Positions 4,301-59,867 of a DNA stretch of 64,000 bases are shown piece after piece. Within the stretch, counting starts at the first letter, position 1. Every line of letters begins with the position of its first letter. The notes under the pieces were generated by a model, which was not told the DNA's origin, ran no database searches, and saw only the letters and a list, made by a program, of their open reading frames with translations. Source of the stretch: Clytia hemisphaerica (Eukaryota). Location: positions 1,063,681-1,127,680 of the forward strand of contig NW_027104472.1 in assembly GCF_902728285.1 (NCBI RefSeq). The letters are read 5' to 3'. Position numbers and translations under genes: made by a program.

Positions 4301-6071
4301 TAAACCCAAAATCTTATGACCATGTAAGGGGAGTATAATTTCCTAATTTTTGGATCAAGTCAGAGACTCAAAAAAGTAGAGAAAAGGTTTCTTCAGAATT
4401 AGAACTAGGTCACAGTCTGGATCTAAACCACAATGAAACGACCGCCTTCCATCACGCATTACGCTCTCGAAAGAGCGCGCGCACATTATTAACGCCTACA
4501 TGTCATCTCCAGTACATTTTAGATTATTCATTGAAAACAAATTACAATATAGTCATATTTCATGTCTCGATTATTCATTTCCGAATAAAAGACATTCAGC
4601 GAAAAAAAAAAGAGAAACACCTGGGTAATCTAGTTAAAAAAACCGAAAGTAAATGGTAGACGAAGTAATGAGCCAAGGCAAAACGAGATTAGCGTACCAC
4701 TATGAAAGAAACCGCCTCCGGCGGTCGATAATGTTCTATCTTTTTCCTGCTGTACATGATTTTTATACTAGGTCACAGTTTGCTTCAGAGCAAACTGGTG
4801 CGACCGCTGTTTTACAGAGCAATTAACACTTTCTTCAGCAGTCAACAGAACAACATCCATCACAAATCATGTATGATACTTCATAAAAAATGAAAAACAG
4901 CACATGTAAAATGCAATAACTAACAATGTCGAAAATAATTGCAGAGGACCGAGAGAAGTTATAATTCAAAATTACTCCAAGAAGTACATCTAAAAACAAA
5001 GACTACCTCTGAAATCAAAACGCTTGCATCCTAGCTAACACGCTGAACTTTCTAAGCCACCGTACCATCCACCCATACCTCTCTGGGCCACCGTACACGC
5101 GGGATATCTCTTAGATATTTGCGTGGTTATCTCCCTAATATTCAGCCACCAAAAATGAAAATTAAAGATGGTAACTTAAGCTGCACGATTTCACTTTCGA
5201 TTTCAACTTTCAACCTCCCAGACTCCGTAAACAAAAACACGACGGTAAAAAACCGCCTTCAGGCGGTCGATAAGAACTTAAAGCTTCGGGACAAGCTTGA
5301 GTTTTTACAAGCTCTTATTTGATTTGGTTGGTCGTTAACCAGTAATAAAACAATTTTTTTTACTTTTTCTAAAGAACGCGTCATCTCTATCACTTCAAAT
5401 GACCAATTAGTGAAATATCTTATAAAAACTCCAGGTTATCCCAAAGCTTCGATGGCCAAAATATTATACCCAATTTCTCTGGAAATTTCACAAAAATACT
5501 AACAAAATTTTTGAAAATAAGAACATTTTAAAAACATTTCTAGGCTAAAAACTGAAAAAGTTTGGTTTTAAAAAATTTGGATTTTCTTCTACGTACTTTT
5601 CTACCTTATTTTAAGGTTATTTGGGATAAAGGAACTCTTAGGTTGGAAACAATGTTGATTATATTTGAATAGCAGGATAGATTTCCTAAGGATTATACCA
5701 ACTTAATTTCTTTTCCCATCTTCCTAGTTTTTGGGTTTCATTGAAGTAACAACCCATTGAAAAAAATGAATAGCTCTTTCATAATAATTGACGAATGAGG
5801 AAATGGAGTGAAATGAAATTCATAAATAATTGAAAAATCGATTATGAAATTTGAAAATGAATTAAAGTTACAGTATCTAAAGTTGAATTAGATCAGCCCT
5901 TTTTTTCACTTTTTACTTGAAATATAATAATCGAATAAAAATTTTGGAATCTTTTGGAATGGATAAGTAGATTTACTCATTTTTACTGGGAACGCCCAAT
6001 GAAACAATATGGTTTCTGCAAACAGCTCAAAATCTAAAACTGAATTTATTGGGAACGCCTAATGAAGCAAT

Positions 6072-7326
6072 ATGGTGTCTGCAAGCAGCTCAAAATGTAA
6101 ATCCGAAGTTGAAAATTTGAGACTAAAAATCTCCCAACTTGAACAAGACATTGATAAAATCAACAAGTTATCTAACAAAAGATTTGTATGTATCGAGAAA
6201 AGAATTGAGAATAATGGAAATGCCATTCAAGAATTGAATTTTGTACTTGGGCAATATGTTGGGACCCATGAGGACTATTATCGAGATATCAATGATGGTG
6301 ATAGACTAGAAACCGAGACAATAATTTCTGCTGAAGAATCTAAATTCAAGTCTGAGACAAATGACGGTATCAATGATGGCGATAGCAACTATGATCGGGA
6401 TATTGCCATCAGTGGCAAGAGTCGGGAAACCGATACAAAGATGATTGAAAATTCAGAGACAAGTGTCAAGTCAGAGACAAACGACGGTTTTATAGATGAG
6501 AATTACACAGATCGTAATGATGTCACGGAAACTCAAATAAACGGATCGCTACGCAACGATATCAGAAACGAGTCTCAAAAAGGTCGAAAAATTGATATCA
6601 ATCACTACTTGAAGAAAAGTCCTATTTCTTCAAAACGAAATAATTCAAGTCGTTCTCTGAAAAAGACTTTATCGGTGCGAATGTCGAAATCAAACTCTTA
6701 TAATGATCAAGGGATCCCTTTAGGTGCTATTCCTAAGGGCACATACTTTGAGAACCCATTATCAAATGATGTTATTAATAAAGATACTTCGAGGGATGAA
6801 GAAATCAACTCAAATCAATCTGCCCGGTCTTCTGGAAGATCTGATTCTAAAAAGTCAATGTCGCGAACTAATTCAGACGTTCAACTAAATTTTGGAGGCG
6901 TTTTAAGCTCGGTGACGATGTCCAGAAAGAGAGCTAACATTGAAGCCCAATTAGATAAGAACCTTGAAATCATACTTAGTCCGTTACAAACCCGCATGAA
7001 ACACCAAAATGACGAAGAAGGGATCAAACACTTGGAAGAAATCGAAGAGAAAATTCATGAAGAAAAACAAAGTTATGCTGAAGGACTAACCATCCATGGA
7101 GCAAATCGAATCGCGACTGGTAGACCATGTAGTAAAATCATATGGTCTATACTTGTGATTGCCTCACTTACTACTGCAGCTCTGATATCAAAGGAACACT
7201 GGGAGGCTTACTTGAACAAGAAAAGTATATCTAATACCATGATTTTACACCAACAGAGTATTCCCTTACCAGCTATTACTGTGTGCAATTATGATGGGAT
7301 TAACAAGGAGAGACGAAATTTCCAAG
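6072..7326 (+). CDS. DEG/ENaC (amiloride-sensitive Na+ channel, ASIC/HyNaC-like) 5' coding exon: long low-complexity N-terminus, HG motif, TM1 and post-TM1 FPAITVC motif. Probable donor caag|gtgggc at 7327.
   Basis: The 439-aa ORF ends ...GLTIHGANRIATGRPCSKIIWSILVIASLTTAALISKEHWEAYLNKK...SIPLPAITVCNYDGINKERRNFQ. TIHGANRIA matches the DEG/ENaC His-Gly motif. It is followed by a hydrophobic TM1 and the family-diagnostic FPAVTIC-type motif. The true start Met is uncertain (possibly internal, e.g. the MSRKRAN or MKHQNDEEG Met). Confidence 0.7.
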
Positions 7327-7419
7327 GTGGGCCACCGTCATATGTTCGCCCAACGTTGGTCAATTTCCCAAGCATGCACTCTCAGTTTTAAAGGTCTTTA
7401 TTAAGACCTTTTGGGTGTA

Positions 7420-7800
7420 TCAGGTAACGATCCGTTATCGCAGAACGTTTTGGGTCTTGTTCTAAATCAGACCTTAAGGTCTTGATTTTAATAGGACCTT
7501 TATCGCGCCCAATAGAGACTATTCTAGATCCCGAAAGAGACTTCAAGGGTTCTGATTCTATCAAACCTAAAAGGTCTTATTTTAAACGAGACCTTTCGAA
7601 AAAAGTCCGTTATCGCAGAACGTTTAGGGTCTTGTTCTAAATCAGACCTTTAGCGCGCCCAATAGAGACTATTCTAGATCCCGAATAAGACTTCAAGGGT
7701 TCTGATTCTATCATACCTAAAAGGTCTTATTTTAAACGAGACCTTTCGATAAAAGTCCGTTATCGCAGAACGTTTGGGGTCTTGTTCAAAATTAGACCAT
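7420..7800. repeat. Tandem repeat of a roughly 190-bp unit (about 2 copies) built from GGTCTT/AGACCT words. A related roughly 180-bp tandem duplication lies at 8941-9240.
   Basis: The string ccgttatcgcagaacgtttngggtcttgttctaaatcagaccttnagcgcgcccaatagagactattctagatcccgaanaagacttcaagggttctgattctatcanacctaaaaggtcttattttaaacgagacctttcga occurs twice. agcgcgcgaaatngagacctttagaggtct...cattgaaaaggcttgta is duplicated at 8941 and 9118. Confidence 0.65.
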
Positions 7801-9567
7801 ATTAGTGCCTAAAAGAAACTATGTTTAGTACTCGTTTTTGAAGGTCTGTAATTTTCAAAAGGCCTAAATTGTCGAAACAAAACCTAACAATAATTAAGAG
7901 AAGAAGAGAATAAAAATACTCAAGAATTTCAATGTAAAAGATATATTCTAACAAATATCCATTATATTATGTATATAATAGTTCTTTGATATCGAAACGT
8001 ACAAGAGATGTATTGTACGTGTCCAGTTTGTTCATGACAATGATGATTATTCACGACAAAGTCTAGCTGTTTATGTAAGTACGACTGTAAACCAGATTGT
8101 CAAACAAACGTTCGTGTCCAAGAGTTGAAAATTGAATAGACGTTTGTTATGGTGACGGTGACACAAAACTTTAATGAACTGGATAGTTGCGTGCTAACAT
8201 GAAAGCTGGATAGTTGCGTGCTAAAAAGAGATAAAGATCACAAAACTGGTTTTTAGGCCTATTACTTCATCGAAATGTAATTTAGAAAATTTGAAAAATT
8301 CTTTACTTTTGATCCAGATCTTCAAAGTTTTCCAGAAAAAAACAACAAATTGGGCAAAGATACAGTTTATTCAATTCTTACCTCAGCAGAGAGTCGATTT
8401 TGTTCTGGCCATACTTTAAACAAACGTTTAGATAATGTGATGGTGGGATTTACAGCGACAGTGACATGGGCTCACATGATGTTGGGTTAGATTCTCGTTA
8501 ATGTCGAAGCTGAAAAAAATAATATAATAAAAGATTTAAAACGAATATTGCACAAAAAATAAAATAAAATTTCGTAAAAGCCTAGCTAGTAGGATCAATA
8601 AATACAAGCACAAAATTCGATCGAGCCTCGCCAAAACTTTCCATGGGTGTATTTGCAACAATAAAGCTCCATGTTTGTGGAAGAAAAAAGGATTCATCCG
8701 ATCAAAAGATATATATATATATATAGCTCCAGTGAACAAAAAAAGGATTTTAAGAAATTTCATTACGTGAAGATTGTGTTACTTACCTTTTTTTCTTTTT
8801 GCTCTTCAGACCGTCTTCACCCTTTTGGCTCCAAAATTGTTTTGATTTTATTTTTGCACAATTTTGAACTTTTCGAATTTCGAACGACGTTCGAAACATT
8901 CGAAAATTCGAAAGAAGTCGTTACACTGCTCTAGATTTTTTAAAGCGCGCGAAATCGAGACCTTTAGAGGTCTTCATAAAAGCCCTTTTTATCGTGTCTA
9001 TTGGATGTTCACTATCGTGTCTATTGAAAAGGCTTGTAAATGGCAGACCTAAAAAGGTCTTGTTTCAAACCAGTGAGCCTTTAGAAGTCTTGAAGGAGAC
9101 CTTTTTGGCGACCTTTTACAGCGCGCGAAATTGAGACCTTTAGAGGTCTCCATAAAAGCCCTTTTATCTTGTCTATCGGATGTTCACTATCGTGTCTATT
9201 GAAAAGGCTTGTATCAGGCAGACCTAAGAAGGTCTTGTTTCAAACGCGTGATTGAGACCTTTAGAAGTGTTGAATAAGACCGTTTCCAAGAAGAGACCAT
9301 GAAGGTCTTATTTCGAAAATACAAAGGAGACCTTTTTGGTGTATAGAACAAGACCCTTGCTTGAATGGAAACCTTGCAAGGTCTCAATCGGCCACACAAG
9401 AGTTTCAATTCAGACCTTTCATGATATACTGACATGTAAGTAAAAATTAGACCGGCTAAGGTCTCAAAACTAAACCTAAAAGGTTTGAATTCAGACTGAT
9501 AAGGTCTTTCTTCAAATTAGCATCTAAAAGGTCTCATATAAAACCCTAAAAACTGAGAGTGTGAGAG

Positions 9568-10472
9568 CCTGCGGTGGCCTAAACTTAACAAAGTGCAGTG
9601 ACTTAAAGTCGAGACCTATCAAAGTTCAAACTATTTCACATGATTATTCTAAAACTGAATTACAAAATCATTTAGTGGAATTTGATAATACGACTAATTG
9701 TTTTACTATCAAATGTTTGATTCAACCAACACCATCTAGCCTCTTATCCATACAGGCTGTCGTTAATAGTTCAGCGGCTAGTCGTACGAGTGAAATTTAT
9801 ATAAATCCAGCCTCGGAGACATTTCCTGAAACTTCTCCTACAGTCTATTGGGCTAACGAAGGGTTCTACCATGTTAATATTGAAAAGAAAATTATTACGC
9901 ACCTTGGAAAACCTTATACGGACTGTGTGAAGGGAAAAGGATCATATTCTCAAAATAAATTTAAAGGGAACTATACAGTGACTAAATGTGAGAAAGGATG
10001 TTTTTGGGAAAAAGTTTTTGAAAAGTGTGGAGCCATACCTCAAATGTATAAAAAACACATGCGCAAGCCGTATCGATTTGATAACAAAACATTTGTAAAT
10101 AACACTTTCGGCCAAGCGTGTTTAACGTCTATTGAGGGTGATTCAAGCGTTACTCAAAAGTGCCACGCCCTTTGCAAACTACCCCCATGTTACGAAGAAG
10201 ATGTTAAAATGACGTTAAGTTATCACCAATCAACTGCGCCCAATTTTTTCGAACTAGCAATTACTTTCCAATCGTTCTTGATTGAAATCGTCGAGGAAGT
10301 ACCTGCTTACACTTGGCAAGATTTATTCGCCAACTTTGGTGGTTGTGTAGGTTTGATGACAGGGGCTTCCATACTATCTCTTTTTGAATTGTTCATTTTC
10401 TTTGGGTTAATTTTGTTAGACTTTTTTGATATTTATACGAAAGTTTCTACTAAGATTCCGCACCACAAGTAG
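9568..10472 (+). CDS. DEG/ENaC 3' coding exon: thumb-domain cysteines, palm, G-A-S selectivity filter, TM2 and C-terminus (stop TAG 10470-10472). The 5' boundary is uncertain (candidate acceptors at about 9567 or 9746), and intermediate exons may exist in 7330-9560.
   Basis: The ORF 9561-10472 (+) contains ...KPYTDCVKGKGSYSQNKFKGNYTVTKCEKGCFWEKVFEKCGAIP..., a spaced-cysteine thumb pattern. It also contains LAITFQSFLIEIVEEVPAYTWQDLFANFGGCVGLMTGASILSLFELFIFFGLILLDFF. This aligns with ASIC1 ...[49 protein letters not shown], i.e. the pre-TM2 segment plus the G-x-S filter. Confidence 0.75.
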
Positions 10473-15800: not shown

Positions 15801-18800
15801 CACTGGACACAGGTTAGTGACTAAACATTGAGAATACTAGAATAATCGTTTTTGTGACTTGCCTGTTTCATGGTTCATGGTTGTGAATTTACTGTATTCA
15901 GTAATTTTTTTAATCGACCGTGATGCATAAGGGGGTTTGGTTCGATCTTAGTATGATCAAATAACGCTATTAATTATTTGTATCGACAACTATTTTAATT
16001 TCCTGTAACCGTGAATATGGCAATGTAATATCATAAACACCCCCTTCTCACAGACCCACAGGGAACCCTTCCCACTGGAAAAATTAGCCAGAATATCGTC
16101 CCCGGTGGAAAATTATACACCAATTTTTGTCCCCGCTGAAAATAATCAGATTAGCAAATCCTCACTGCAAAATATTGTGCTATTTTTTCCACCCCGCTGA
16201 TTATTTTTGTCCTAAAACAATGTAATTGAAGTCCCCAACCATAAAAATATTGCGTTGTTACTAAAAGTGGTAACACAGGGTAACACATGGTAACAGGGGG
16301 TAACACTAGGGTAACAGGGGGTAACACATGGGTAACACATGGGTAACAGGGGTAACACTAGGGTAACAGGGTAACAGTTTGAAAATGGTGGCTCTGAGGG
16401 GTCGGAAATTTGAAAATTGACTTAACCAATGTTGTTGGTGAATACAATGATAGAATGAATGATGCTGGTCAATGCAATGATGGAATCGATGTTGCTGGTG
16501 AATGCAATGATGGTGTTACTGGGGAATGCAATGATGGAATCAATGGTGCTGGGGAATGCAATGGTGGAATCAATAGTGCAGGTGACTGAAATGATGGAAT
16601 CGATGTTACTGGTGAATGCAATGATGGTGTCACTGGTGAATGTAATGATGGAATCAATGGTGCTGGTAAATGTAATGCTGTAATCAATGGTGCTGGTGAA
16701 TGCAATGGTGGAATCAATAGTGCAGGTGACTGAAATGATGGAATCGATGTTACTGGTGAATGCAATGATGGTGTTACTGGTGAATACAATGATGGAATCA
16801 ATGGTGCTGGTGAATGCAATGGTGGAATCAATAGTGCAGGTGACTGAAATGATGGAATCGATGTTACTGGTGAATTTACATTCAGCAGTAACATCATCAT
16901 TGCATTCACCAGCAACATCGATTCCATTATTTAAGCCCTCTGCACCATTGATTCCACCATTGCATTCACCAGCACAATTGATTCCACCTACAGATACCAG
17001 CACTATTGATTCCATCATTGCATTCACCAGTAACCATCATTGCATTCACCAGTAACATCGATTCCATCTTTTCAGTCACCTGCACTATTGATTCCACCAT
17101 TGCATTCACCAGCACCATTGATTCCACCATTGCATTCACCAGCACCATTGATTCCATCATTGCATTCACCAGTAACACCATCATTGCATTCACCAGCAAC
17201 ATCGATTCCAACATTGAAGTCACCTGCACCATTGATTCCAGCATTACATTCACCAGCACCATTGATTCCATCGTTGCATTCACCAGTAACACCATCATTG
17301 CATTCACCAGCAACATCGATTCCATCATTTCAGTCACCTGCACCATTGATTCCAACATTGAATTCACCAGCACCATTGATTCCAGCATTACATTCACCAG
17401 CACCATTGATTCCATCATTGCATTCACCAGTAACACCATCATTGCATTCACCAGCAACATCGATTCCATCATTTCAGTCACCTGCACCATTGATTCCAAC
17501 ATTGAATTCACCAGCACCATTGATTCCAGCATTACATTCACCAGCACCATTGATTCCATCATTGCATTCACCAGTAACACCATCATTGCATTCACCAGCA
17601 ACATCGATTCCATCATTGCATTGACCAGCATCATTCATTCTATCATTGTATTCACCAATAACATTGGTTAAGTCAATTTTCAAATTATCGACCCCTCAGA
17701 GCCACCATTTTCAAACTGTTACCCTGTTACCCTAGTGTTACCCCTGTTACCCATGTGTTACCCCCTGTTACCCTAGTGTTACCCCCTGTTACCATGTGTT
17801 ACCCTGTGTTACCACTTTTAGTAACAACGAAATATTGGGAATATCAATACCCGTCGAGTTTAGGTCCGTTATTTTCACCCCACTGGCTGGAAAAATCCCA
17901 CCGGGTCTGTGAGAAGGGGGTGTTCATAATGACTTCAAACATTTGAATTCAATAGACACTGGTAAAGTCGAACTTCAAACTTGATTCAAAGGTTGACCAT
18001 TTCCAAAAAAACTTTGTCTTTCCGGCTTTCAGATTACATTCACTGAGCGATCACAGAGAACCAGTAACTGGATGCGTTGTCACAAGAGACGGTAAACTTC
18101 TCGTCACCGTATCATTAGACAAGACGGCTCGCTTATGGAACGTTAATGACGGCTCGGCTGCCGGTTTTTTAGCTGGGCTCGATAGCCCGTTGAATTGCGT
18201 TGCCATGGATACGGAAGATAAACATGCAGCGTTAGGAGGTTGGAATAAATGTATTGTCATCTGGAATATCTTGGAAAACAAGAAAATTGCAGTGAGTATC
18301 GTTTGAATTCTTTTTATGACATTTAGCTCGGTTTTGACCATATACGGTCATAGAAGATTTTTGTCCCAAGGGTGATGGGTCAAATAATTTTCAGAACTGT
18401 ATTTGATTATCTTACACTCATTTTACAGTCAAAATTAGAGCCTTGTTTTTTTTTTGGAAAAAAGAAAGTGACTAGAGAATCTCCCCATGTGACCATATGT
18501 TTTCCTGACTTATTTATATCCCGACATACCCTTAAAAGGTATCTACAAAATCTTTCTACGTAGAGAGATTGATGGTTTTCTTCTTATTACACTTTACAGA
18601 GCTACAACAAAGGACATAAGAGTTCCGTCAGAGCATTGGCTTATTCTCCCAACGGATCTTATTTAGCGTCCTCCGGTTTGAATGGTGAATTGTTGTTGTG
18701 GTCCACCCAGAGTGGAGCTATGGTGAGTTGTCGTGTCTTAAAGGTTTTGTTTTTAAATAAGAGTGATTTCGCTTGCTTGCTCACCAATTTTAAGTCGCAA

Positions 18801-27800: not shown

Positions 27801-30800
27801 AAAACCAAGCTGGCCGCGTAATTTATATAGGAAATAAGTGGCTTCAAGTCCTAAATTGGAAATACGATTCTCGCCTAAGGCTATACCTAATTGCCCCCCC
27901 CCTATCCGAAATGCTAAAAACCTATATAATTTTCATCCGTTCGTTCTTCAGCTCTCAAAAGAAGAAGATAACGGACCTGCCCATTCAGGTGAAGTCACTT
28001 CCATCGCCCTTCACAATAATGACACCATTGCTACAGCAGGGCGGGATGGGCGTATCAACCATTACATCAAGAATGAGCTAACCATGACATACGTAACACC
28101 TGATTTGTCACCAGTAACCACCCTTGCGTTTAGACCTGATGGTAAGCGTGTTTACTTTGGCACGAGTAGCGGTCGTATGGAATGGCTGTCGACCGATAAC
28201 ACGGATCATTGTGAATTTTATACCCGTGCAAACTGTCCAGTGTTGAGTATGGCGACGCAAGGGAGTTTGGTTTTCGTCTGCACCACAAGACAGTTGTACA
28301 TCTTCACCATCAATGGGAATACATTGTAAGTCTAAGATCTTATAGTGTAGCAAGCTAGATGACTAATTCAGACATAGTAGAAATAAAGCAAAAAGTAATG
28401 AAGGGAATTTTAGCCTTATACAAACTAAATCCCGTAACAATAATCGTATTACCATATAATGCCTATACTACTGTATTATACGTATTATAAACGACTCCAG
28501 TCTAAAGATCTTATAAAATCCATAAGTTACGCGATTCCTTTATAAGAAATAGTAAAATTTTCATGCTCAACTGCTCTTAGGAAATTTAGTGAATGCTTAA
28601 TAATTTATAGGGTTTAGTCACTATATTATGATTTGCGTATACATTTTTTTATAAGAACATTCAAAATGTTTGAAGCCTTCGGATGTTCTTAACTTTTTGA
28701 GTTTTTTCCTTCACCCGCATTCCGGAAACACTACATTTTTTTATTTTCGCCTTACTTATAATTAATATTTCGGCCATTGAAGCCTCACGCTCTTATATAG
28801 TTTGTTATTATAAAAAAACGTGACGATCTTGTACTTCTTTTTTCACCAGGTCCAAAACAAGAGAACTGTGCGTTAGTTCTCCGCACACGGAGGGTGACTT
28901 TGACAAAATCACTCAGATGCAGCCTCTACACAATAACATCCTGGCAACTAGTTTCAACAGAAGTTTGGTATTCTCACCTCAAATATTGATCAAACAAATG
29001 GACCGAATGCTGGTAAGATAGAGTCGATTAATTTTGCCGACGCCCCAATAATCTAGGACTTTTAGACAGTTTTTTGCTTGTTTTAACGGGGTCCACGAAA
29101 CTTAGCTTATCTCGCTTTTTGTAATGTCACGTGATGGCACGTGCGACACTTTTTCAACCAAAAGCACTCCATCTAGCCCTTCCTAAAGAAGTGAAGGTAG
29201 GTAAGGCTAGAAATGCGACTAGAAATGCAACATCCGAGCTGTTATAAGATTTTAGGCCTTGATTGTACGTTGTTTTTTTTTTCAGTCTAGATGTGTGATG
29301 TTTTGACGATTTGAAATTATAAGATGTCATTCGTTTGAATTTTTTTTTAGGTCGAATATTTTCATAATCCACAGACAATCTTCGTTGACAGAGATAGAGA
29401 CCACCAATCAACAGATGCTGCATTTTCATCGGCATGTTTGCAAAATGATGGGTATTATTTGATCTATACTGGTCAAGAGAGTGGATGTATTTCACTCAAG
29501 GTCACATCTGACACTGAAATGTCGAAAAAAACTCAACAGGATATTCTAAACGAGCCTTCACAATCTCGACGAAAAGAACGTGTTGAAAATGTCGATTTTA
29601 ACGGCTCTTATGGAGGGCGTGGTGGGCGTCGTGGTAGAGGCGGATTTGGAAGAGGTCGAGGTCGAGGTCGTGGTGGGCGTTTGTATAGTCCGCCAAGTTC
29701 AGATGCTGATGAGTGGGATAGAGGTGAGTTTCCATTAAAGTTTCTTATACAAATAATTTACATATTTTGATATTTATGTATAGACAACAGTGTATCGAGA
29801 ACTAACTGATAATTATCATTATTATTACCATACTGATGCCCGCAATGCAGTTGTAGATATATTTCATCGTGAAGCGGTTATAATTTGGTTCCTTATTGGG
29901 CCCCCGGCGGTTTGCGTGAATGCGTGAATGGGCTTTTTCACTTGCGTGAATGTGTGAAAATTGAATTGGAAAACTTTGCTTGAACAAAAATTGCTTGAAT
30001 TGCGAAAAAACATCGTGTGAATGCGTGAATAGACGATATCGGCTTAACGTGAAAACTCAGATTTGATCCCCGTATATTGCCCACAATGCTTTGCGCGAAA
30101 AAAAGTTCACGCTGAAATTTTTTCCGCACAAAGCATTGTGGGCAATATTCGGGATCAAACCTGGGTTTTCACGTTAAGCCGATATCGTCTATTGGGAAAG
30201 GAATTTGCTTGATTGCGTAAATTGAAGGTCCGCTGCAACGGACTCCTTATCACTCGAATTTCTTGTGATTCCATTTATTTGATTAGACAACAGTTAAAAA
30301 AAGTTTGCCTCCATACACACAGATTTCTCTGAAAAATACTCTTTTCACTAACGCCTGTAGGCCCAGTGGAAGATGACTGGGGCCCGCCCAACCCTATAGA
30401 TGATGGGGACTGGGGACGAACGGATGAAGAAATCAAAAAACAAGATGAGCTTTATGAACGTGATCTTGAAATGGAAGACCTGTGCAATTCATCAAGAAAG
30501 GTTTGTTGAATAATTGTTTTTACAAACATTTTTTTTTACATTGGCTTTGATCACTGACCTTTATATATTATATAAAAAGTTCAGTGGCTTTGATAGAGTA
30601 AAGAAAAGTTTTTCAAATGATTATCCAGATGATAGTGAACAGCCTATAGTTATGTAATATTTCCATTATGGAAACACGCCCCTTCTCGCAGACCCGGTGG
30701 GATTTTTCAGCCATTGGGGATAAAACTAACAGACTGAAACTCATTTTATGGCTGGGGATTTCAATTCTTTTGTTTTCAAGTCAGAAAACTCAGTGGGGAT

Positions 30801-43418: not shown

Positions 43419-44366
43419 TTGTTCAAAGTGGATGAATACAACGCAACAAGCACAGATTACAGCAACATTTTGTATTTCAAAATACTACCTTTATTTTGGA
43501 CATTACCAATACTAGTGTTGATGTTAATACCGAATATTCTGATGCTTACTGCACTCGTCAAAACAAAGAAGGAGTGTAAAATCTCTGGCAATCTATTTAT
43601 CGGGTTGTGCGTTTCCGATATACTGTGTCTGTTGTTTTACTACGGCACCGTTCTAGCTCCTTTGATTTTTCCTCCCAACTTTGTTGCTGACGCTCTACTT
43701 ATCATGTTTTGTATTGGAAATTTAGCACAGACTTTTGGAACACAAATATTTTTACTGATAACATTTTTAAGATGCTGGTCCCTGGCAAAACCTTTGATTC
43801 CAATCAGAAAGAGATACATTTATGGATATTAAAGTGTAGTCCTTGTTTTTGCTATTCTATTTCTAGTCATCTATATCACATTCTATTATATGGGACGCTA
43901 TTACGATTCGAAAGCAAAATTCGAGGTTTTAGGTGGTATCTCGTATGGTATTTTCATATTTTTAATGCTGGTTGCAAACTCGGTATCTTATATTGTCCTC
44001 AAAGGCTTAAGACTCTGCCATCGAAACAAACCATTGAAAGCATCACTGGATCCTGAGAAGGCTCATAAGCATAAGTGTATGGAAACTAATCTTGACAGCT
44101 CTGGAAACTCTCAAACGAAAAATGGTGATTTTGATAAGCGCTTAACGAATCTTGAAGACGCGAAATCACGCCGAAACAAGGTTAAAAGTGTAAACACAAT
44201 TTTCATGATAACATTGCTTTATGTAACCTGCATATTTCCAAGAAGTATATTGATGATTATCATTTACCCGATAGATAGTACTTGGAGCATTGTTTTGGGG
44301 AACATATTTTTAGCTAATACGTCGCTCAATTCGATTGTGTACATTTTAAGGACCAGAAAAATTTAA
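43419..44366 (+). pseudogene. Intronless class-A (rhodopsin-like) GPCR paralogue interrupted by a single in-frame TAA at 43830-43832 between TM3 and TM4. It is otherwise a full-length 7TM.
   Basis: The ORFs 43419-43832 and 43890-44366 are in the same reading frame and are separated only by the TAA. Read through, they give ...IRKRYIYGY*SVVLVFAILFLVIYITFYYMGRYY... The protein is collinear TM1-TM7 with the intact paralogue at 48518-49393 (e.g. LVKTKKECKISGNLFIGLCVSDILCLLFYY vs LVKTNNKTSGKLFIALCICDVSYLSLYFIL, and NTSLNSIVYILRTRKI vs NSSLNSVIYIIRTKNI). Confidence 0.7.
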
Positions 44367-45743: not shown

Positions 45744-46818
45744 CTAAACCGTTCTTTTACAAAAAATCTTTTTAAAATATAATTTTTCACGAGGGCTTCC
45801 TCGTACCCTCCATTTAAAATCGTCATTCGATCTGGCTTTATTCATCTCGTCTGCTCTCTTTTTCCACTCTTTGATTTGTTCCCTCTCCATTTTTGTCAAG
45901 TCGTCGGTGATACTTAATTTCACGTACTTCTCGTGTTGTTTCAATTCAGTCAACTTCTTCATGAACCTGTATTTGTTATGACTGTCTTTGAATACAACTT
46001 TGATTGGGCGCATAACCTTAGATTCTTTTCCAACACGAGAGACGTAGGTTGGTTGAGTCTTTAAATTAACGTCATTCAGAAGCTCAGTAACGAAATCGAT
46101 ATCTTCTTTATTTTCATTTTCATTTACCCCATGGATAATGATATTTGCGTCTGTCGATAGTTTCCTTTGGTCCTCAATTTGTTCGTCGATTTTTTCCTCT
46201 CGTAGTAGCTGTTTCATGCTATTTACGCTTAATTGATCATTGTTTTTAGTCGCTTCAGCAAAACTTTTCTTACGTGGTTGCGGTTTGATTTTTTGCAGTC
46301 TTGTTATTCAAAGTCTCTTCTATCTTGGATGTTAGTTTTGTTTCTAGCGTGGAAAACTGGCTCTGTATTAGATTGGTAACTTGATTTTTATCCTTGATGT
46401 ATTCTTGATATCTTGCCTGTAAATCTTTGATCATTGTGTTTAGACTTTTTTCACTCTCACTTTTGACTTTTATTATACTTTCGCACGATTCGATTTCTTT
46501 ATAACTGTGCGTGCAGCTTTTAATTCTTTCCACTTGATTATGAACTTTTCTACCGAGTTCTTTTGCCGGAGAGCAACAAGTTATACACACGTATTTTCGG
46601 TAACCTTTATTTAAAAACATATTTAACTGGTATGGTGGTAGTCCAGTGCAGGCATAATGTAGCGTTCGTTGGCATTTATGACATTGAATTCTCATTTTTT
46701 CATCGTCTTTTATACAATTATGCTCGGTACATCGATTGTTGTCACTCGCATCTTCATCAGGGATCAGGATCTTGCCAGGTGATGTCGTTTTTGGTTGAAA
46801 TTTGGCTATTTTTTCCAT
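45744..46818 (-). mobile_element. Non-LTR retrotransposon ORF1p-like coding region (Cys/His zinc-finger, coiled coil, L1 'Transposase_22'-type RRM/CTD), split by a frameshift at about 46217-46270. No ORF2/RT follows.
   Basis: The minus ORF 46818-46270 gives CTEHNCIKDDEKMRIQCHKCQRTLHYACTGLPPYQLNMFLNKGYRKYVCITCC (zinc-finger) followed by a heptad-like coiled coil. The minus ORF 46217-45744 gives ANIIIHGVNENENKEDIDFVTELLNDVNLK...RVGKESKVMRPIKVVFKDSHNKYRFMKKL...KLSITDDLTKMEREQIKEWKK. This parallels the L1 ORF1p sequence NLRLIGVPE...RPRHIIVRFTKVEMKEKMLRAA...IRLTADLSAETLQARREW. The two ORFs are in different frames. Confidence 0.5.
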
Positions 46819-47917: not shown

Positions 47918-48517
47918 AACATAGTCTACTGTTCGTGGTATGAAAATATAATTACTGTGTCGTTGTGCCGAGAGATTTTCTCAATGTTTTAGCGCGTAGT
48001 ATTACTTATAGCAAGGAACTTGCTTATAGCCTGAATATATCCCCAGCCCTGAATGGGGGCGTGTTATGTTTATGCTTAGGAAAGTTGTAAATCTCTGAAC
48101 ATTTTAGTGTGTAGTATTTTGAACATACTGCTAATATTCCAGTATATATTTCAATCATATGCTAATTATGATGATTTAAAATGCAAATATACATTTTTGT
48201 TTAGATTGTAGACTGATTAACAATATATATGAGAACCACCTGCGAAGCACGAAGAAAGTCATAATAAAACTCTAATGTTACCTGTTCAAGAAGAGAATAA
48301 CAATAGCTAATATAGGAGATATGAGGAAAGATTTCGCGATTTTCGCATATTCTTGCCCTTTTTAATGAATGTTAAAGTATCGAGTTTTTTCTTATGTATT
48401 TTCAGTTTGAAGCAATTCAAAGCCATCTGGAAGCCGTCAAAGACTTTGCTGGTAAAAAAATTGGTGAAATTGCTAAGTAAAAGAAACAGAGCAATATCAA
48501 AATCAGGACAAGCAGGA

Positions 48518-49393
48518 ATGGAGAATCAAAATACCACTGACATCTTTTTTAACCAATTAGAAGACCGAATGATCCCGCTATACGCTCATATATTGGTATT
48601 GATACTCTCAATCATTACAAATGCTATCATGATTATCGCATTGGTCAAAACGAACAACAAAACATCTGGGAAACTGTTCATAGCATTATGCATATGCGAT
48701 GTTTCATACTTATCTTTGTATTTCATTTTGAGCTCAGAGAGTTTTCACAAAGACAATTGGCTAACGATTGCGATTTTCAATTTGGGGAATTTTTTCCAGT
48801 TCTTAGGCGTCGATTTATTTTTACTAATAACAATTTTAAGATATCTTTCCTTAATCAAACCTTTTAGACCTTTAGGGTCGAAATTCGTCCGGGTATTTAT
48901 CGCCGTATCGTGTTTACTTAGTTGTGTGTACCCAGCTCTTTTTGACGTCATGTTAGCCCTTGAGGCTATGGAGCTGATGAATGTCATCGAGGTAATATCC
49001 GGGGCGCTCCTATTTCTAACTTTGGTGGTAATAGTCACTTTGAATATGTTATCGTATTTCCATCTTAGAAGACTTGGAAAGTGTCAAAATCCATCCATCA
49101 CTGCTAATGGAAAAAACATTAACATCCAAGAAGAAAAGTCAAGGAGTCAAAAGTTGAAGAGCATCAAGACTTTATTACTAATCACCTTTTTCTACGTGGT
49201 TTGTTATTTTCCGAACACTTTTGGAATGGTTTTTAAGATACCTTCAGCTGAGGGCATATTTGGTGCATTGTTCGGAGTGGCCCTCATGATAAACAGTTCT
49301 TTGAATTCAGTGATTTATATCATTAGAACTAAAAACATTCGAACATTCTATCGCACTTGGTTTTTGAAATGCATACTACATTATAAGCGATAA
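48518..49393 (+). CDS. Intact intronless class-A GPCR (7TM), 291 aa from the MENQNTTD Met. The ORF is open upstream to 48353.
   Basis: Seven hydrophobic helices are present: ILVLILSIITNAIMIIALV; LFIALCICDVSYLSLYFIL; FNLGNFFQFLGVDLFLLITILRY (DRY-position LRY); FVRVFIAVSCLLSCVY; ISGALLFLTLVVIVTLNMLSYF; IKTLLLITFFYVVCYFP; GVALMINSSLNSVIYIIR (NPxxY-position NSVIY). There is an N-terminal N-glycosylation sequon NTT and a basic IL3. Stop TAA at 49391-49393. Confidence 0.75.
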   Translation: MENQNTTDIFFNQLEDRMIPLYAHILVLILSIITNAIMIIALVKTNNKTSGKLFIALCICDVSYLSLYFILSSESFHKDNWLTIAIFNLGNFFQFLGVDLFLLITILRYLSLIKPFRPLGSKFVRVFIAVSCLLSCVYPALFDVMLALEAMELMNVIEVISGALLFLTLVVIVTLNMLSYFHLRRLGKCQNPSITANGKNINIQEEKSRSQKLKSIKTLLLITFFYVVCYFPNTFGMVFKIPSAEGIFGALFGVALMINSSLNSVIYIIRTKNIRTFYRTWFLKCILHYKR

Positions 49394-49838: not shown

Positions 49839-50822
49839 CTAATTCATAGATCCAACAACAATCGTTGCAATATCCTCAGGTAATAAATTTCGTCCTTTTT
49901 CACTCACAAAAGAACGTTTCTCCACTATCTCATAAATCCCTCTCCTTTGTTCATCAGTCCATTTCTCAAAAGGTTTTTGCGTTTGAAACGAAAAATATGG
50001 CAGCGGTGTACCATTCTTGAGATAGTCAGTCACATCATAACATAGAACCTCATCTTTATTTATCTCACATTTATAAGGTATGTTCAGGTCATCCAGCTCA
50101 CGAATAATACCAAGATGAGACAAAGCGTAGTTACTAGTCTGTTCTCTGAATTCTATTGATGATGTTTGAGCCATTAAGGCATAAAGCTCAGCACCGACTT
50201 CTTCAGTTTGATTGAAAATAATGATTCGACCTCCCTGACTAAGCATTGATCTCGCGTTTTGAATTGTCAAGCCTGGATAGTCAACGTAATACAACACACT
50301 GGCCATAAGAATTACATCGAACATACCTATAGCTCCTTGGATCATGTCGGAAGAGGAAACAAATCGTTCACCAGGTATAACTTCTTCATTTCTACCGTTT
50401 TGATCATTTTCCTTTAAAGATTCAGTCGAGCCATCTGGATATGTCACAAGTATATTTTGAGGTGGAGAGTAATTTTCATTGAAACTTTTTTTTTCAATAG
50501 CATAAGGTACCTTCCATGTTTTAACATTTTCTTCCAGTTTCGAATGATATTCCGTTTCAACAGGATCGACAGCATAATACAGTGTAACGTCTAACTGGCT
50601 TTCTTTAACCAGTATTTCATCAAGTATTCCGTCACCAGGACCAATTGATAGGATCTTCAATGCTTTTTTATCCAAGTTGTTACTTTCCAGAATGGATTTA
50701 AATTTTGTTTGTTTTATGTGACCAGCATTTTTCTTCCGATTTTCACTGTTTGCTACCGATGACCAGTGATCCCAATGACCATGATCAGCCACCTCGTGTA
50801 TCTGATTACCATTATCAGCCAT
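49839..50822 (-). CDS. Histamine N-methyltransferase-like class-I SAM-dependent methyltransferase, single exon, 327 aa.
   Basis: The complete minus ORF runs ATG 50822 to TAG 49839. Motif I LKILSIGPGDGILDEIL matches HNMT IKILSIGGGAGEIDLQIL. The later block FDVILMASVLYYVDYPGLTIQNARSMLSQGGRIIIF matches HNMT [45 protein letters not shown] lies about 45 nt upstream of the ATG on the minus strand. Confidence 0.7.
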   Translation of the reverse strand: MADNGNQIHEVADHGHWDHWSSVANSENRKKNAGHIKQTKFKSILESNNLDKKALKILSIGPGDGILDEILVKESQLDVTLYYAVDPVETEYHSKLEENVKTWKVPYAIEKKSFNENYSPPQNILVTYPDGSTESLKENDQNGRNEEVIPGERFVSSSDMIQGAIGMFDVILMASVLYYVDYPGLTIQNARSMLSQGGRIIIFNQTEEVGAELYALMAQTSSIEFREQTSNYALSHLGIIRELDDLNIPYKCEINKDEVLCYDVTDYLKNGTPLPYFSFQTQKPFEKWTDEQRRGIYEIVEKRSFVSEKGRNLLPEDIATIVVGSMN

Positions 50823-58066: not shown

Positions 58067-59867
58067 ATGAAACCAATGATCCTCTTGGTCACAATCTTAC
58101 CGTTCCTACATGGTTTGATGAAAGATAACAATACTGGTGAAGCTTGGGGATATGTTGATGTCCGAGAAGGTGCTCATATCTTCTGGTGGTTGTACGGTCA
58201 ATCTGCAAACACACCAAAGAATCCTACAAGACCACTGGTCATGTGGCTACAAGGTGGTCCTGGTGCGTCATCAACAGGTAAAAGATTATGAAGAAATCTC
58301 TGTTTCAAGTTTCAAGAAGACACACCAAAACGTCAAAAAAATTTCTCTCAGGGTCGGAAATTTGAAATGTGAAAGGCCTTTTTTACCAAAAAATAAGTCC
58401 CTTCGTGGCGCCAATTCTTGAGTAGAGAATAGGATTTGTTTTTTATTTGAATGTCGATATTTTGATCAATAGATAATGTAATTTTTCTGTTAAACCCTCA
58501 TTACCCATTTTTATAGTTCTTTCGTTGCACCTTAATACAATAAAACTTTTAGTACTTCTTCTTAAAGTGATTTTAAATGATTAATCCAAATAAGGGCCAA
58601 TCAATTCACCAATATACCTTCTATTCCTAGTGTTGGTAAAGCCGTTTATACATCTTTTCGACCGTAGCCGCCAATTGCTCCAGTCCTTTTTTCGCACATA
58701 TAGACAATAGAAAAATGTGTCAAAAAAGGATTGGATCGAGTTTAGGGGGATAATTAAATAATTAAGTGGCACGCGCCTGACTGCACGACTACAGTCAAAA
58801 AGGTGTATTACTTCCCAACAAATATCTTATACAATTTCTATTACTTATACTTTTTAGGATTCGGTAATTTAGCAGAAGTTGGCCCTCTTGATGAGAACCT
58901 ATCACCTCGATCAGGACCTTGGACATCACTGGCTGATATGCTGTTTGTAGATGCACCTGTAGGCTCTGGATTCAGCTACGTCGAACCACCTGACACTTAT
59001 ACTTCAACTGAAAGCCAAATTGATGAAGATTTATATCAATTCTTAAAGAAATTTCTTTCCGAAATGCCAGAATATCAGAACACACCATTCTACATATTTG
59101 GAGAATCGTACGGTGGTAAAATGGGAGCGTCGTTTGGAGTACGTCTTCAAGGTGGCATACAATCGGGCGACGTTCGTGCTAATTTACGTGGCTTGATTTT
59201 AGGCGATGCTTGGATTTCACCAACTGATTCTGTAGCTACTTGGGCGCCGTTCTTAAAGGACGCCAACTTAATTTCGCCGACCGGATTCGAAGCTGTTTCT
59301 CAAATGACTAAACAAACAGTTGACGCGGCGGATAGTGGGCGGTACCAAGAAGCAACTGAACTCTGGAAACAAACACAGGGCGTTATTTTTCAAAACACAA
59401 ACAATGTTAATCCGTTTAACATCCAACAACATAATGCACCATCTTGCAACAAAGAATCAACCAATGCTCTGATGAATGGCCAAATCAGACAAAAGCTACA
59501 AATCATCCCTCCCAACGTCATTTGGGATTCACATCGTAATGACGTCTTTGCAGCTCAGTCTCAAGAATTTATGAGACCGGTTATCAATGAAGTAGGACAG
59601 CTCCTATCCTCAGGACTCAAGGTAGTGATCATTCAAGGACAATTAGACTTACTATGCGACAGCCCTGGTACAGATGCTTGGATCAAGAAATTACCTTGGG
59701 GTGATTTGCCACAATATTTAGCAGCACCTTTGACGACAATGTCTCAAGGGAAAATGAGACGATATAAGAATTTGATATATTATGATGTGAGTAATGCCGG
59801 ACATATGGTACCGATTGATAAACCCTCTGCTGGATTGGAAATATTACAATTAGCGATTTCAGATTGA
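58067..59867 (+). CDS. SCPEP1: Serine carboxypeptidase, peptidase S10 family (retinoid-inducible serine carboxypeptidase SCPEP1-like). Exon 1 58067-58277 (signal peptide plus start of catalytic domain), exon 2 58858-59867.
   Basis: Signal peptide MKPMILLVTILPFLHGL. Exon 1 ends ...LVMWLQGGPGASST|gtaaaa (phase 1). Exon 2 begins after tttttag with G-FGNLAEVGPLD... and contains FYIFGESYGGKM (catalytic Ser in GESYGG) and ...NAGHMVPIDKP (catalytic His). It is collinear with human SCPEP1: LVMWLQGGPGGSSTGFGNFEEIGPLD...FYIFSESYGGKM...KAGHMVPSDQ. Stop TGA at 59865-59867. Confidence 0.85.

What the first reader, a model, noticed from the sequence alone, without database searches (positions are those of the whole stretch)
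6072..10472. DEG/ENaC channel gene with an unusually long Ser/Asn/Asp-rich N-terminal extension and a 5' tandem duplication
The family hallmarks are all present (HG motif, TM1, FPAITVC, thumb Cys pattern, G-A-S filter, TM2). However, the first ORF carries about 330 residues of low-complexity, repeat-containing sequence (KSETNDGINDGD / KSETNDGFIDEN) ahead of the HG motif. The ORF start is also covered by a roughly 60-bp direct tandem duplication (5983-6043 and 6044-6104) whose first copy has an in-frame stop. The ectodomain between FPAITVC (about 7300) and the thumb (about 9800) is about 100-130 residues short unless additional small exons lie in the repeat-rich 7330-9560 interval.
Basis: partly seen in the sequence, partly recalled or inferred. 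Interest (0 to 1): 0.5.

Follow-up and report, generated by a model that had tools for sequence, protein, structure and literature searches.

The report
Jellyfish sodium-channel gene split by transposon
This is a Clytia hemisphaerica (jellyfish) DEG/ENaC ion-channel gene with a long N-terminal tail, and the 2.2-kb gap read as an intron with missing exons is a DNA transposon inserted into a normally intron-less gene.

Summary
The window is Clytia hemisphaerica DNA: a neighbouring gene is 99% identical to a Clytia protein. ORF1 (6072-7391) and ORF2 (9561-10472) are the two halves of one DEG/ENaC (Pfam ASC) gene.

The closest relative is an uninterrupted 670-aa ORF on a metagenome contig, about 83% identical in DNA. 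It reads ...NFPSMRACGGL... straight across the gap. Its DNA aligns to window 6981-7376 and to 9562-10472, and the two matches overlap by 2 bp (TG).

The 2185 bp between them (7377-9561) have:
- perfect 13-bp terminal inverted repeats, CACTCTCAGTTTT...AAAACTGAGAGTG;
- a TG target-site duplication;
- dense subterminal AAAGGTC/GACCTTT motifs;
- no coding capacity.

This is a non-autonomous, CACTA/CMC-like DNA transposon, not an intron.

The repaired CDS (6072-7376 + 9564-10472) encodes 737 aa. Its HG-to-GAS spacing is 360 residues, against 355-361 in 11 homologues. No exons are missing.

The N-terminal extension is real. 341 residues precede the HG motif: a helix, about 220 residues predicted disordered, then helices. 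The orthologue has it too (dN/dS 0.02-0.42), and nothing outside this subfamily matches it. The 63-bp tandem duplication at the start codon is real and lineage-specific.

Verdict: an ordinary gene-family member carrying a probably inactivating transposon insertion. Interest is modest.

The parts
5982..6044 (+). First copy of the 63-bp tandem duplication. It holds an in-frame ATG at 6009 that opens a 17-codon upstream ORF ending at TAA 6060-6062 (followed by TGA 6063-6065).
   Evidence: TRF: period 63, 1.9 copies, 89% matches. Direct comparison 55/63, and upstream translation. Not alignable in the orthologue L001.
6045..6107 (+). Second copy of the 63-bp duplication. It contains the presumed start codon, ATG 6072.
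   Evidence: ATG 6072 is the first in-frame ATG after the stops at 6060-6065.
6072..7376 (+). CDS part 1 (codons 1-435): N-terminal extension, HG motif (7095-7100), TM1 (about 7128-7196), LPAITVCN (7266-7289) and the first approximately 60 ectodomain residues, up to ...NFPSM.
   Evidence: Pfam ASC 1-84. Colinear with P0001 to the last codon. blastn L001 1448-1843 = window 6981-7376.
6081..6266 (+). N-terminal long helix (residues about 4-65), a coiled-coil candidate. A comparable helix-like segment opens most paralogues.
   Evidence: AF2 single-sequence model, pLDDT 84-97 for residue blocks 11-60. dN/dS 0.18 (residues 13-51) and 0.016 (residues 52-75) against L001. Alignment A1 columns 170-210.
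6267..6920 (+). Low-complexity, probably disordered linker (residues about 66-283), including the small KSETNDG repeat (6346-6368 and 6466-6488).
   Evidence: pLDDT <50. Composition and self-blast. dN/dS 0.42 with in-frame indels only. No homologues among 1.84 billion representatives.
7375..7376 (.). Left copy of the 2-bp target-site duplication (TG).
   Evidence: L001 carries a single TG at this point. The two blastn segments overlap by exactly 2 bp.
7377..9561 (.). 2185-bp non-autonomous DNA transposon (CACTA/CMC-like) inserted in the coding exon.
   Evidence: Absent from the orthologue L001 and from all 13 homologous proteins. TIRs. TSD. 17 copies of AAAGGTC/GACCTTT against 0.27 expected. 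No Pfam hit above noise (one at E 0.7) in its ORFs.
7377..7417 (+). Left terminal inverted repeat: perfect 13 bp CACTCTCAGTTTT, extending to 41 nt at 78% complementarity.
   Evidence: (I1).
9521..9561 (-). Right terminal inverted repeat (perfect 13 bp at 9549-9561).
   Evidence: (I1).
7474..7798 (.). Left subterminal 150-bp tandem repeat (2.2 copies, 92%) carrying the AAAGGTC/GACCTTT motifs.
8938..9285 (.). Right subterminal 175-bp tandem repeat (2 copies, 88%) carrying the same motifs.
9562..9563 (.). Right copy of the TG target-site duplication.
9564..10472 (+). CDS part 2 (codons 436-737 plus stop): RACGGL..., the rest of the ectodomain with the Cys-rich thumb, GAS filter (10362-10370), TM2 (about 10341-10433), TAG stop at 10470-10472.
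   Evidence: Pfam ASC 231-455. blastn L001 1842-2752 = window 9562-10472. Alignment to ASIC1/ASIC2.

Best explanation
The locus is a single-exon DEG/ENaC (ASIC/HyNaC-type, Pfam ASC) channel gene of Clytia hemisphaerica. It belongs to a hydrozoan subfamily that appears to lack introns.

The encoded protein is 737 aa. It has a cytoplasmic N-terminal extension of 341 residues: a long helix, about 220 disordered Ser/Asn/Asp/Lys-rich residues, then two helices before the HG re-entrant motif. A complete two-TM channel core with a Cys-rich ectodomain follows.

In this assembly a 2185-bp non-autonomous cut-and-paste DNA transposon has inserted between codons 435 and 436, duplicating the dinucleotide TG. 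It has CAC...GTG termini, 13-bp perfect TIRs and subterminal repeat arrays.

No canonical splice-site pair can remove the element precisely. The most likely consequence is therefore a truncated product: 435 residues plus HSQF and a stop, ending about 60 residues after TM1. That would make this a recent null allele or young pseudogene.

Shown: family membership, colinearity, the empty site in the orthologue, TIRs, TSD, and selective constraint on the extension.

Inferred: transposon superfamily, recency of the insertion, loss of function, and start codon 6072.
For: **Family.** Pfam ASC hits both ORFs. phmmer matches ASIC1/2, FaNaC, ENaC and PPK26 chains, with the HG, post-TM1 and GAS motifs aligned. 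An AF2 model of the repaired core matches full-length FaNaC and ASIC chains in Foldseek at E about 1e-13.

**Organism.** The neighbouring ORF 58803-59867 is 99% identical to C. hemisphaerica XP_066933687.1 / EP00111 TCONS_00049089.

**Insertion.**
- P0001 reads NFPSMRACGGL without a gap.
- L001 nt 1448-1843 align to window 6981-7376, and nt 1842-2752 align to 9562-10472, giving a 2-bp overlap. The junction sequences are printed.
- The TIR CACTCTCAGTTTT lies exactly at both breakpoints. With up to 1 mismatch allowed, 0.17 matches are expected per window. The TIR extends to 41 nt.
- 17 of the window's 25 AAAGGTC/GACCTTT motifs lie inside the element, against 0.27 expected.
- The element's ORFs have no Pfam hit above noise (one at E 0.7).
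- CAC..GTG termini and 2-5 bp TSDs are hallmarks of the CMC/CMCT clade (PMC12730594, PMC4079192).

**Completeness.** The HG-to-GAS spacing is 360 aa, against 355-361 in 11 homologues that include the GAS motif. All 13 homologues are colinear across the junction. L001 and L002 are uninterrupted ORFs on contigs without poly(A).

**Extension is coding.** dN/dS against L001 is 0.18 (residues 13-51), 0.016 (52-75), 0.42 (76-300) and 0.09 (301-335), compared with 0.05 for the core. All indels are in frame.

**No annotated protein for this locus.** The search found no Clytia protein more than 58% identical, and the best hit from any source is 68% identical. NCBI, UniRef and EukProt Clytia proteins are all in the database.
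Against: - No transcript data were available, so splicing of the element through cryptic sites cannot be excluded. 22 GT/AG pairs near the ends keep the frame. One pair, inside the TIRs, would leave only a 12-nt footprint.
- Only one copy of the element is visible. There is no second copy in the 64-kb window and no hit in JGI metagenomes. Its mobility and superfamily therefore rest on structure alone.
- L001 and L002 are taken to be genomic from their record names (L001's says METAG) and the lack of poly(A), not from metadata I could read.
- The AF2 core model is of only moderate confidence (mean pLDDT 66.7, pTM 0.55).
- The orthologue L001 lacks an in-frame ATG in front of the conserved N-terminal helix. 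The start-codon assignment is therefore not cross-validated.
Confidence: 0.8

Rival explanations
1. This is a two-exon or multi-exon gene with a spliceosomal intron 7327-9567. Further small exons may be hidden in the repeat-rich interval. The ectodomain would be shortened.
For: AAG|GTGGGC at 7326/7327 resembles a donor site. AG|CC at 9567/9568 keeps the frame. The Pfam profile leaves positions 85-230 unmatched.
Against: This splice removes 18 residues (GGPPSYVRPTLVNFPSMR) that are encoded in frame on both sides and are conserved in the orthologue and paralogues. The HG-to-GAS spacing is already complete at 360 aa without any extra exon. The homologous genes are uninterrupted on contigs that look genomic. 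The interval has TIRs and a TSD and no ORF with family similarity.
Confidence: 0.04
2. The transposon behaves as a newly born intron. It would be removed from the pre-mRNA through cryptic sites in or near its ends. One candidate pair is GT 7385 in the left TIR and AG 9558-9559 in the right TIR, which leaves +12 nt (+HSHV). The channel would remain functional.
For: In-frame GT/AG pairs exist. Both halves of the ORF are still free of stops and frameshifts, with a strongly constrained dN/dS of 0.03 and 0.06. From my own knowledge, not tested here: maize Ds/dSpm elements and 'introner' DNA transposons are known to be spliced out.
Against: The candidate donor TCA|GTTTTA and acceptor GAGAG|TG are poor matches to the consensus, and there is no pyrimidine tract. 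No register of element plus one TSD has GT-AG, GC-AG or AT-AC ends. No Clytia protein model or transcript-derived protein for this locus is in the protein database. The low dN/dS reflects the long history before the insertion, so it says nothing about what has happened since.
Confidence: 0.1
3. Assembly artefact. The 2.2-kb block was mis-joined into an intact gene, or is present on only one haplotype.
For: There is only one copy to inspect. The neighbouring gene is 99%, not 100%, identical to the annotated protein, so allelic variation exists.
Against: A mis-join would not produce a 2-bp target duplication flanked by perfect inverted termini exactly at the breakpoints. If the annotated assemblies carried an intact allele, a 737-aa protein about 99% identical should be in NCBI, UniRef or EukProt. 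It is not.
Confidence: 0.06

Closest known systems
Clytia hemisphaerica DEG/ENaC paralogues (e.g. UniRef A0A7M5XAU2 = P0003; NCBI 'acid-sensing ion channel 4-like' = P0004), part of the 37-gene Clytia expansion described in PMC9822975
   Same: 51-58% identity in the best local alignment, which spans the channel core and 53-66% of the query. The HG-to-GAS spacing matches (357-361 against 360), as do the conserved motifs: YAEGLTIHG, P(A/S)IT(I/V)CN, FANFGGCVGLMTGASILS. Most paralogues also open with a helix-like N-terminal segment.
   Different: The window protein has 341 residues before HG, against 54-182 in the paralogues. Its gene is interrupted by a transposon, and no annotated protein corresponds to it.
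P0001 / L001, an uninterrupted orthologue-like gene on an ENA metagenome scaffold (ERZ23498720)
   Same: 71% identity overall and about 90% in the core. It has the same long N-terminal extension and an identical junction peptide, NFPSMRACGGL. DNA identity is about 83%.
   Different: It has no transposon and a single TG at the site. It lacks the 63-bp duplication. Its low-complexity segment is diverged with in-frame indels. It has no in-frame ATG upstream of the conserved helix.
ASIC1/ASIC2, FaNaC and ENaC (solved structures 2QTS, 6L6P, 7YVB, 6WTH)
   Same: The HG motif, the post-TM1 motif and the GAS/TM2 region align. The predicted fold matches over the full chain.
   Different: Identity is only about 15%. 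By my recollection of chicken ASIC1 numbering (H29/G30 to G443-A-S), the ectodomain is about 50 residues shorter. This was not computed here. The N-terminus is about 10 times longer than in ASICs. Gating ligand and ion selectivity are unknown.
Non-autonomous CACTA/EnSpm-Mirage-Chapaev (CMC) DNA transposons
   Same: 5'-CAC...GTG-3' termini, a short TSD (2 bp; the clade makes 2-5 bp), and subterminal arrays of a short motif in both orientations (PMC12730594, PMC4079192).
   Different: There is no transposase to classify. The TSD is TG rather than the 3-bp TSD of classical EnSpm or Chapaev. No further copies were available for study.

Membership tests
DEG/ENaC (Pfam PF00858, ASC) | Significant match to the ASC profile above the gathering score | tested here: met
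   ORF1 scores 49 bits and ORF2 81.7 bits against a cut-off of 23.6.
DEG/ENaC (Pfam PF00858, ASC) | HG motif just before TM1, and a post-TM1 FPAxTxCN-type motif | tested here: met
   LTIHG (residues 339-343) aligns to TLHG of ASIC2. LPAITVCN aligns to FPAVTLCN.
DEG/ENaC (Pfam PF00858, ASC) | Two transmembrane helices flanking a large Cys-rich ectodomain, with a G-A-S filter in TM2 | tested here: met
   Hydropathy peaks at residues 353-375 and 695-725, with GAS at 702. GASILS aligns to GASILT of ASIC. Conserved Cys columns are seen in A1.
DEG/ENaC (Pfam PF00858, ASC) | ASIC-like subunit fold | tested here: met
   Foldseek against the PDB: 7YVB, 5WKU and 2QTS at E about 1e-13, TM about 0.47-0.5, over more than 430 columns. 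The model has only moderate confidence (pLDDT 66.7).
DEG/ENaC (Pfam PF00858, ASC) | Intact, expressible coding sequence | tested here: not met
   The CDS is interrupted after codon 435 by a 2185-bp element. Read-through gives HSQF and a stop. Expression is not testable here.
DEG/ENaC (Pfam PF00858, ASC) | Trimeric amiloride-sensitive cation channel activity | not testable with these tools
   Needs heterologous expression of the repaired CDS.
CMC (CACTA/EnSpm-Mirage-Chapaev) DNA transposon, non-autonomous derivative | Terminal inverted repeats ending 5'-CAC...GTG-3' | tested here: met
   CACTCTCAGTTTT at 7377-7389 and its reverse complement at 9549-9561. The definition comes from PMC4079192 and PMC12730594.
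CMC (CACTA/EnSpm-Mirage-Chapaev) DNA transposon, non-autonomous derivative | Short target-site duplication (2-5 bp), verified against an empty site | tested here: met
   TG at 7375-7376 and at 9562-9563, with a single TG in L001.
CMC (CACTA/EnSpm-Mirage-Chapaev) DNA transposon, non-autonomous derivative | DDE transposase with C(2)C and H(3-4)H motifs, or clear derivation from an element that encodes one | tested here: not met
   The element has no ORF longer than 87 aa and no Pfam hit above noise (one at E 0.7). No autonomous partner lies in the window. The superfamily assignment is therefore by structure only.
CMC (CACTA/EnSpm-Mirage-Chapaev) DNA transposon, non-autonomous derivative | Multiple dispersed copies in the host genome | not testable with these tools
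   Only 64 kb of the genome is available. There is no second copy in it and no hit in JGI metagenomes.
Spliceosomal intron | GT-AG, GC-AG or AT-AC boundaries whose removal restores the homologue-colinear frame | tested here: not met
   The three possible registers start and end TG..TG, GC..GT and CA..TG.
Spliceosomal intron | Presence at the same position in related genes | tested here: not met
   L001 and L002 are uninterrupted. All 13 homologues are colinear.

The most novel reading that the evidence does not exclude
The transposon is a very young intron in the making. Cryptic GT and AG sites inside its inverted termini (7385 and 9558-9559) would let the spliceosome remove all but 12 in-frame nucleotides, so the channel would survive with a 4-residue insertion (HSHV). 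This would be a metazoan example of intron birth from a CACTA-like DNA transposon in a previously intron-less gene.
Probability: 0.07. Interest if true: 0.6.

Novelty: new member of a known kind. Interest (0 to 1): 0.27.

Why it matters
The main value is as a correction. It gives the true gene model for an unannotated member of the large Clytia DEG/ENaC expansion: 737 aa from 6072-7376 plus 9564-10472. It shows that the apparent missing ectodomain is an artefact of reading a transposon as an intron.

There are three lesser points:
- This hydrozoan subfamily appears to lack introns. It carries a variable cytoplasmic N-terminus that usually opens with a helix. This locus and its orthologue stretch that N-terminus to more than 300 residues. 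That gives a candidate regulatory, scaffolding or oligomerisation module, which could be tested by expressing the repaired CDS with and without it.
- The locus provides a cleanly delimited non-autonomous element with CAC..GTG ends and a 2-bp TSD, useful for annotating Clytia repeats.
- A coding-exon insertion in a laboratory model offers a natural allele for asking whether the gene is dispensable, or whether the element is spliced out.

Tried and rejected
Both are in frame. I rejected them because they delete conserved residues.
- **Hidden exons in 7377-9561.** tblastn with the repaired protein finds nothing there. The ORFs have no Pfam hit above noise (one at E 0.7).
- **Paralogues or a second transposon copy in the window.** None found. 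The one-mismatch TIR match at 46452 has no associated motifs and is most likely chance.
- **Homologues of the N-terminal extension.** Among 1.84 billion cluster representatives there were only two weak hits, which look compositional.
- **JGI metagenome scans.** One scan for the transposon end and one for channel relatives. Both were empty.
- **Genomic loci of the annotated Clytia paralogues P0004 and P0011, to check exon structure.** They are not on record in the contig index. The intron-less inference therefore rests on the metagenome contigs L001 and L002.
- **Rfam and tRNA scans of the window.** Nothing found.
- **Literature search for Clytia-specific CMC elements.** Nothing relevant.


Full report
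**What is in the sequence**

Two long ORFs lie on the + strand: 6072-7391 (439 aa) and 9561-10472 (303 aa). Both match Pfam PF00858 (ASC, the amiloride-sensitive sodium channel family). ORF1 covers profile positions 1-84 and ORF2 covers 231-455.

A phmmer search of solved structures returns ASIC1, ASIC2, FaNaC, ENaC and Pickpocket-26 chains. In those alignments the window's LTIHG aligns to the HG motif, LPAITVCN to FPAVTLCN, and GASILS to the GAS filter. Hydropathy peaks lie at residues 353-375 and 695-725 of the repaired protein.

**Organism**

A neighbouring ORF (58803-59867, serine carboxypeptidase S10) is 99% identical to a Clytia hemisphaerica protein (EukProt EP00111 TCONS_00049089, NCBI XP_066933687.1). 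The window is therefore C. hemisphaerica DNA.

Clytia has been reported to carry 37 DEG/ENaC genes, far more than Hydra (PMC9822975, read).

**The gap is a transposon, not an intron**

The protein search returned 13 relatives. The best is P0001, with 670 aa and 71% identity overall. It reads ...RNFEGGPPSYVRPTLVNFPSMRACGGLNLTKCS... without interruption.

RACGGL... is the start of ORF2.

P0001 is encoded by one uninterrupted ORF on a 2921-bp metagenome scaffold, L001. That scaffold has no poly(A) tail and looks genomic. blastn aligns:
- L001 1448-1843 to window 6981-7376;
- L001 1842-2752 to window 9562-10472.

The two segments overlap by exactly 2 bp, TG (junctions printed).

The intervening 2185 bp (7377-9561) have the following features:
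- **Termini.** They begin with CACTCTCAGTTTT and end with its exact reverse complement. This pattern has 0.17 expected matches per window even with one mismatch allowed. The inverted repeat extends to 41 nt at 78% complementarity.
- **Motifs.** The 7-mer AAAGGTC/GACCTTT occurs 17 times inside the element, against 0.27 expected. All 17 copies lie in the two subterminal blocks. It occurs 8 times in the other 61.8 kb.
- **Tandem repeats.** The subterminal blocks contain a 150-bp repeat (7474-7798) and a 175-bp repeat (8938-9285).
- **Coding capacity.** None is detectable.

TIRs, a target-site duplication, an empty site in a related genome and subterminal repeat arrays together are the signature of a non-autonomous cut-and-paste DNA transposon.

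CAC...GTG termini and 2-5 bp duplications are described as hallmarks of the CACTA/EnSpm-Mirage-Chapaev (CMC/CMCT) clade (PMC4079192, PMC12730594). Without a transposase the superfamily call is structural only.

No register of element plus one TG has GT-AG, GC-AG or AT-AC ends. Precise spliceosomal removal is therefore impossible.

**The gene is complete once repaired**

Joining 6072-7376 to 9564-10472 gives a 2214-nt ORF of 737 codons. This protein is colinear with all 13 homologues across the junction.

The distance from the HG motif to the GAS filter is 360 residues. P0001 has the same spacing, and the 11 homologues that include the GAS motif range from 355 to 361.

A second relative, P0002, is also a single uninterrupted ORF, on a 2250-bp contig from another sample. 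The subfamily therefore appears to lack introns.

An AF2 model of the repaired core (mean pLDDT 66.7) matches full-length FaNaC and ASIC chains (Foldseek E about 1e-13, TM about 0.47-0.5).

- 18 residues were lost to a wrong splice site;
- the finger/palm region of this subfamily is divergent and somewhat compact, so the Pfam profile does not align to it.

**The N-terminal extension**

341 residues precede the HG motif. In the paralogues the figure is 54-182. P0001 has 274 or more.

The extension is shared with the orthologue and is coding. Nei-Gojobori dN/dS against L001, with dS about 1.1 and all indels in frame:

| Residues | dN/dS |
|---|---|
| 13-51 | 0.18 |
| 52-75 | 0.016 |
| 76-300 (low complexity) | 0.42 |
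| 301-335 | 0.09 |
| Channel core | 0.05 |

A single-sequence AF2 model gives a confident helix for residues about 4-65 (pLDDT above 90 for 11-50). Confidence is low for 66-283, which is consistent with disorder. Helices reappear at 279-340.

Most paralogues also open with a helix-like, heptad-patterned segment. I read it as a candidate coiled coil, which is an inference.

An exhaustive HMMER search of 1.84 billion representatives with residues 1-330 found only two weak hits that look compositional. The extension is therefore lineage-specific.

The KSETNDG repeat is a 23-nt match, 21/23 identical, 120 nt apart.

**The 5' duplication**

TRF reports a 63-bp unit with 1.9 copies at 5982-6101. The copies 5982-6044 and 6045-6107 share 55/63 bases.

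The period is 21 codons, so the first copy's ATG (6009) is in frame with ATG 6072. It is closed by TAA and TGA at 6060-6065, which gives a 17-codon upstream ORF.

Homology to L001 begins only at about 6106. The duplication is therefore specific to the Clytia hemisphaerica lineage.

L001 keeps the conserved helix in an open frame but has no in-frame ATG before it. A nearby ATG is one base out of frame. That may be an assembly error or a real change. Either way, the start codon is not cross-validated.

**Consequence and status**

As assembled, translation from 6072 would end at HSQF-stop, 4 codons into the element. The product would end about 60 residues after TM1 and would lack most of the ectodomain, TM2 and the pore.

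Both halves are otherwise intact. The TIR cores and the TSD are perfect, which suggests a recent insertion (inference).

The search found no Clytia protein more than 58% identical, and the best hit from any source is 68% identical. Yet NCBI, UniRef and EukProt Clytia proteins are all in that database. This fits a locus that is not annotated as a protein-coding gene.

I cannot exclude cryptic splicing. 22 GT/AG pairs around the element preserve the frame. Another lies inside the TIRs (7385 and 9558-9559) and would leave a 12-nt footprint. All have weak consensus matches.

**Verdict**

This is a genuine but ordinary member of the expanded Clytia DEG/ENaC family. It has an unusually long, partly conserved cytoplasmic N-terminus, and its single coding exon has been hit by a CACTA-like non-autonomous transposon.

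The interpretation of intron, hidden exons and a short ectodomain is not. Interest is modest.

Noticed in passing
L001 nt 560-740 (orthologue scaffold): The conserved N-terminal helix is in an open frame from nt 608, but there is no in-frame ATG before nt 740. An ATG a few bases upstream is 1 nt out of frame. This could be an assembly error, a real frameshift or a different start.
   Followed up: partly
L001 740-2752; L002 114-1730: Members of this hydrozoan DEG/ENaC subfamily are single uninterrupted ORFs on contigs that look genomic. The subfamily therefore appears to lack introns, which by my recollection is unusual for DEG/ENaC genes. This may point to a retrogene origin followed by expansion.
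   Followed up: partly
window 5999-6100: Besides the 17-codon in-frame uORF (6009-6062), each copy of the 63-bp repeat carries a second ATG (5999 and 6062) in another frame. The one at 6062 overlaps the main ATG at 6072 and ends at TAA 6098-6100. If transcribed, these could damp translation.
   Followed up: no
window 7385 and 9558-9559: A GT inside the left TIR and an AG inside the right TIR would, if used as splice sites, leave exactly 12 nt (+HSHV) in frame.
   Followed up: partly
window 58803-59867 (+): A long exon of a serine carboxypeptidase (Pfam S10, E 1e-65). It is 99% identical to C. hemisphaerica XP_066933687.1, which identifies the organism.
   Followed up: yes
window 49839-50822 (-) and 48353-49393 (+): A 327-aa ORF with a class I methyltransferase domain (Methyltransf_23, E 1.6e-7) lies next to a 346-aa ORF with no Pfam match. 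Both are unusually long uninterrupted ORFs for this genome.
   Followed up: no
window 16400-17700: This is the most GC-rich block of the window (GC 0.417). It has overlapping ORFs of 120-220 aa on both strands, which suggests a repeat or a low-complexity coding region.
   Followed up: no
window 27838-28329 (+) and 43890-44366 (+): A WD40-repeat fragment and a weak 7TM/GPCR-like ORF. They are probably exons of neighbouring genes.
   Followed up: no
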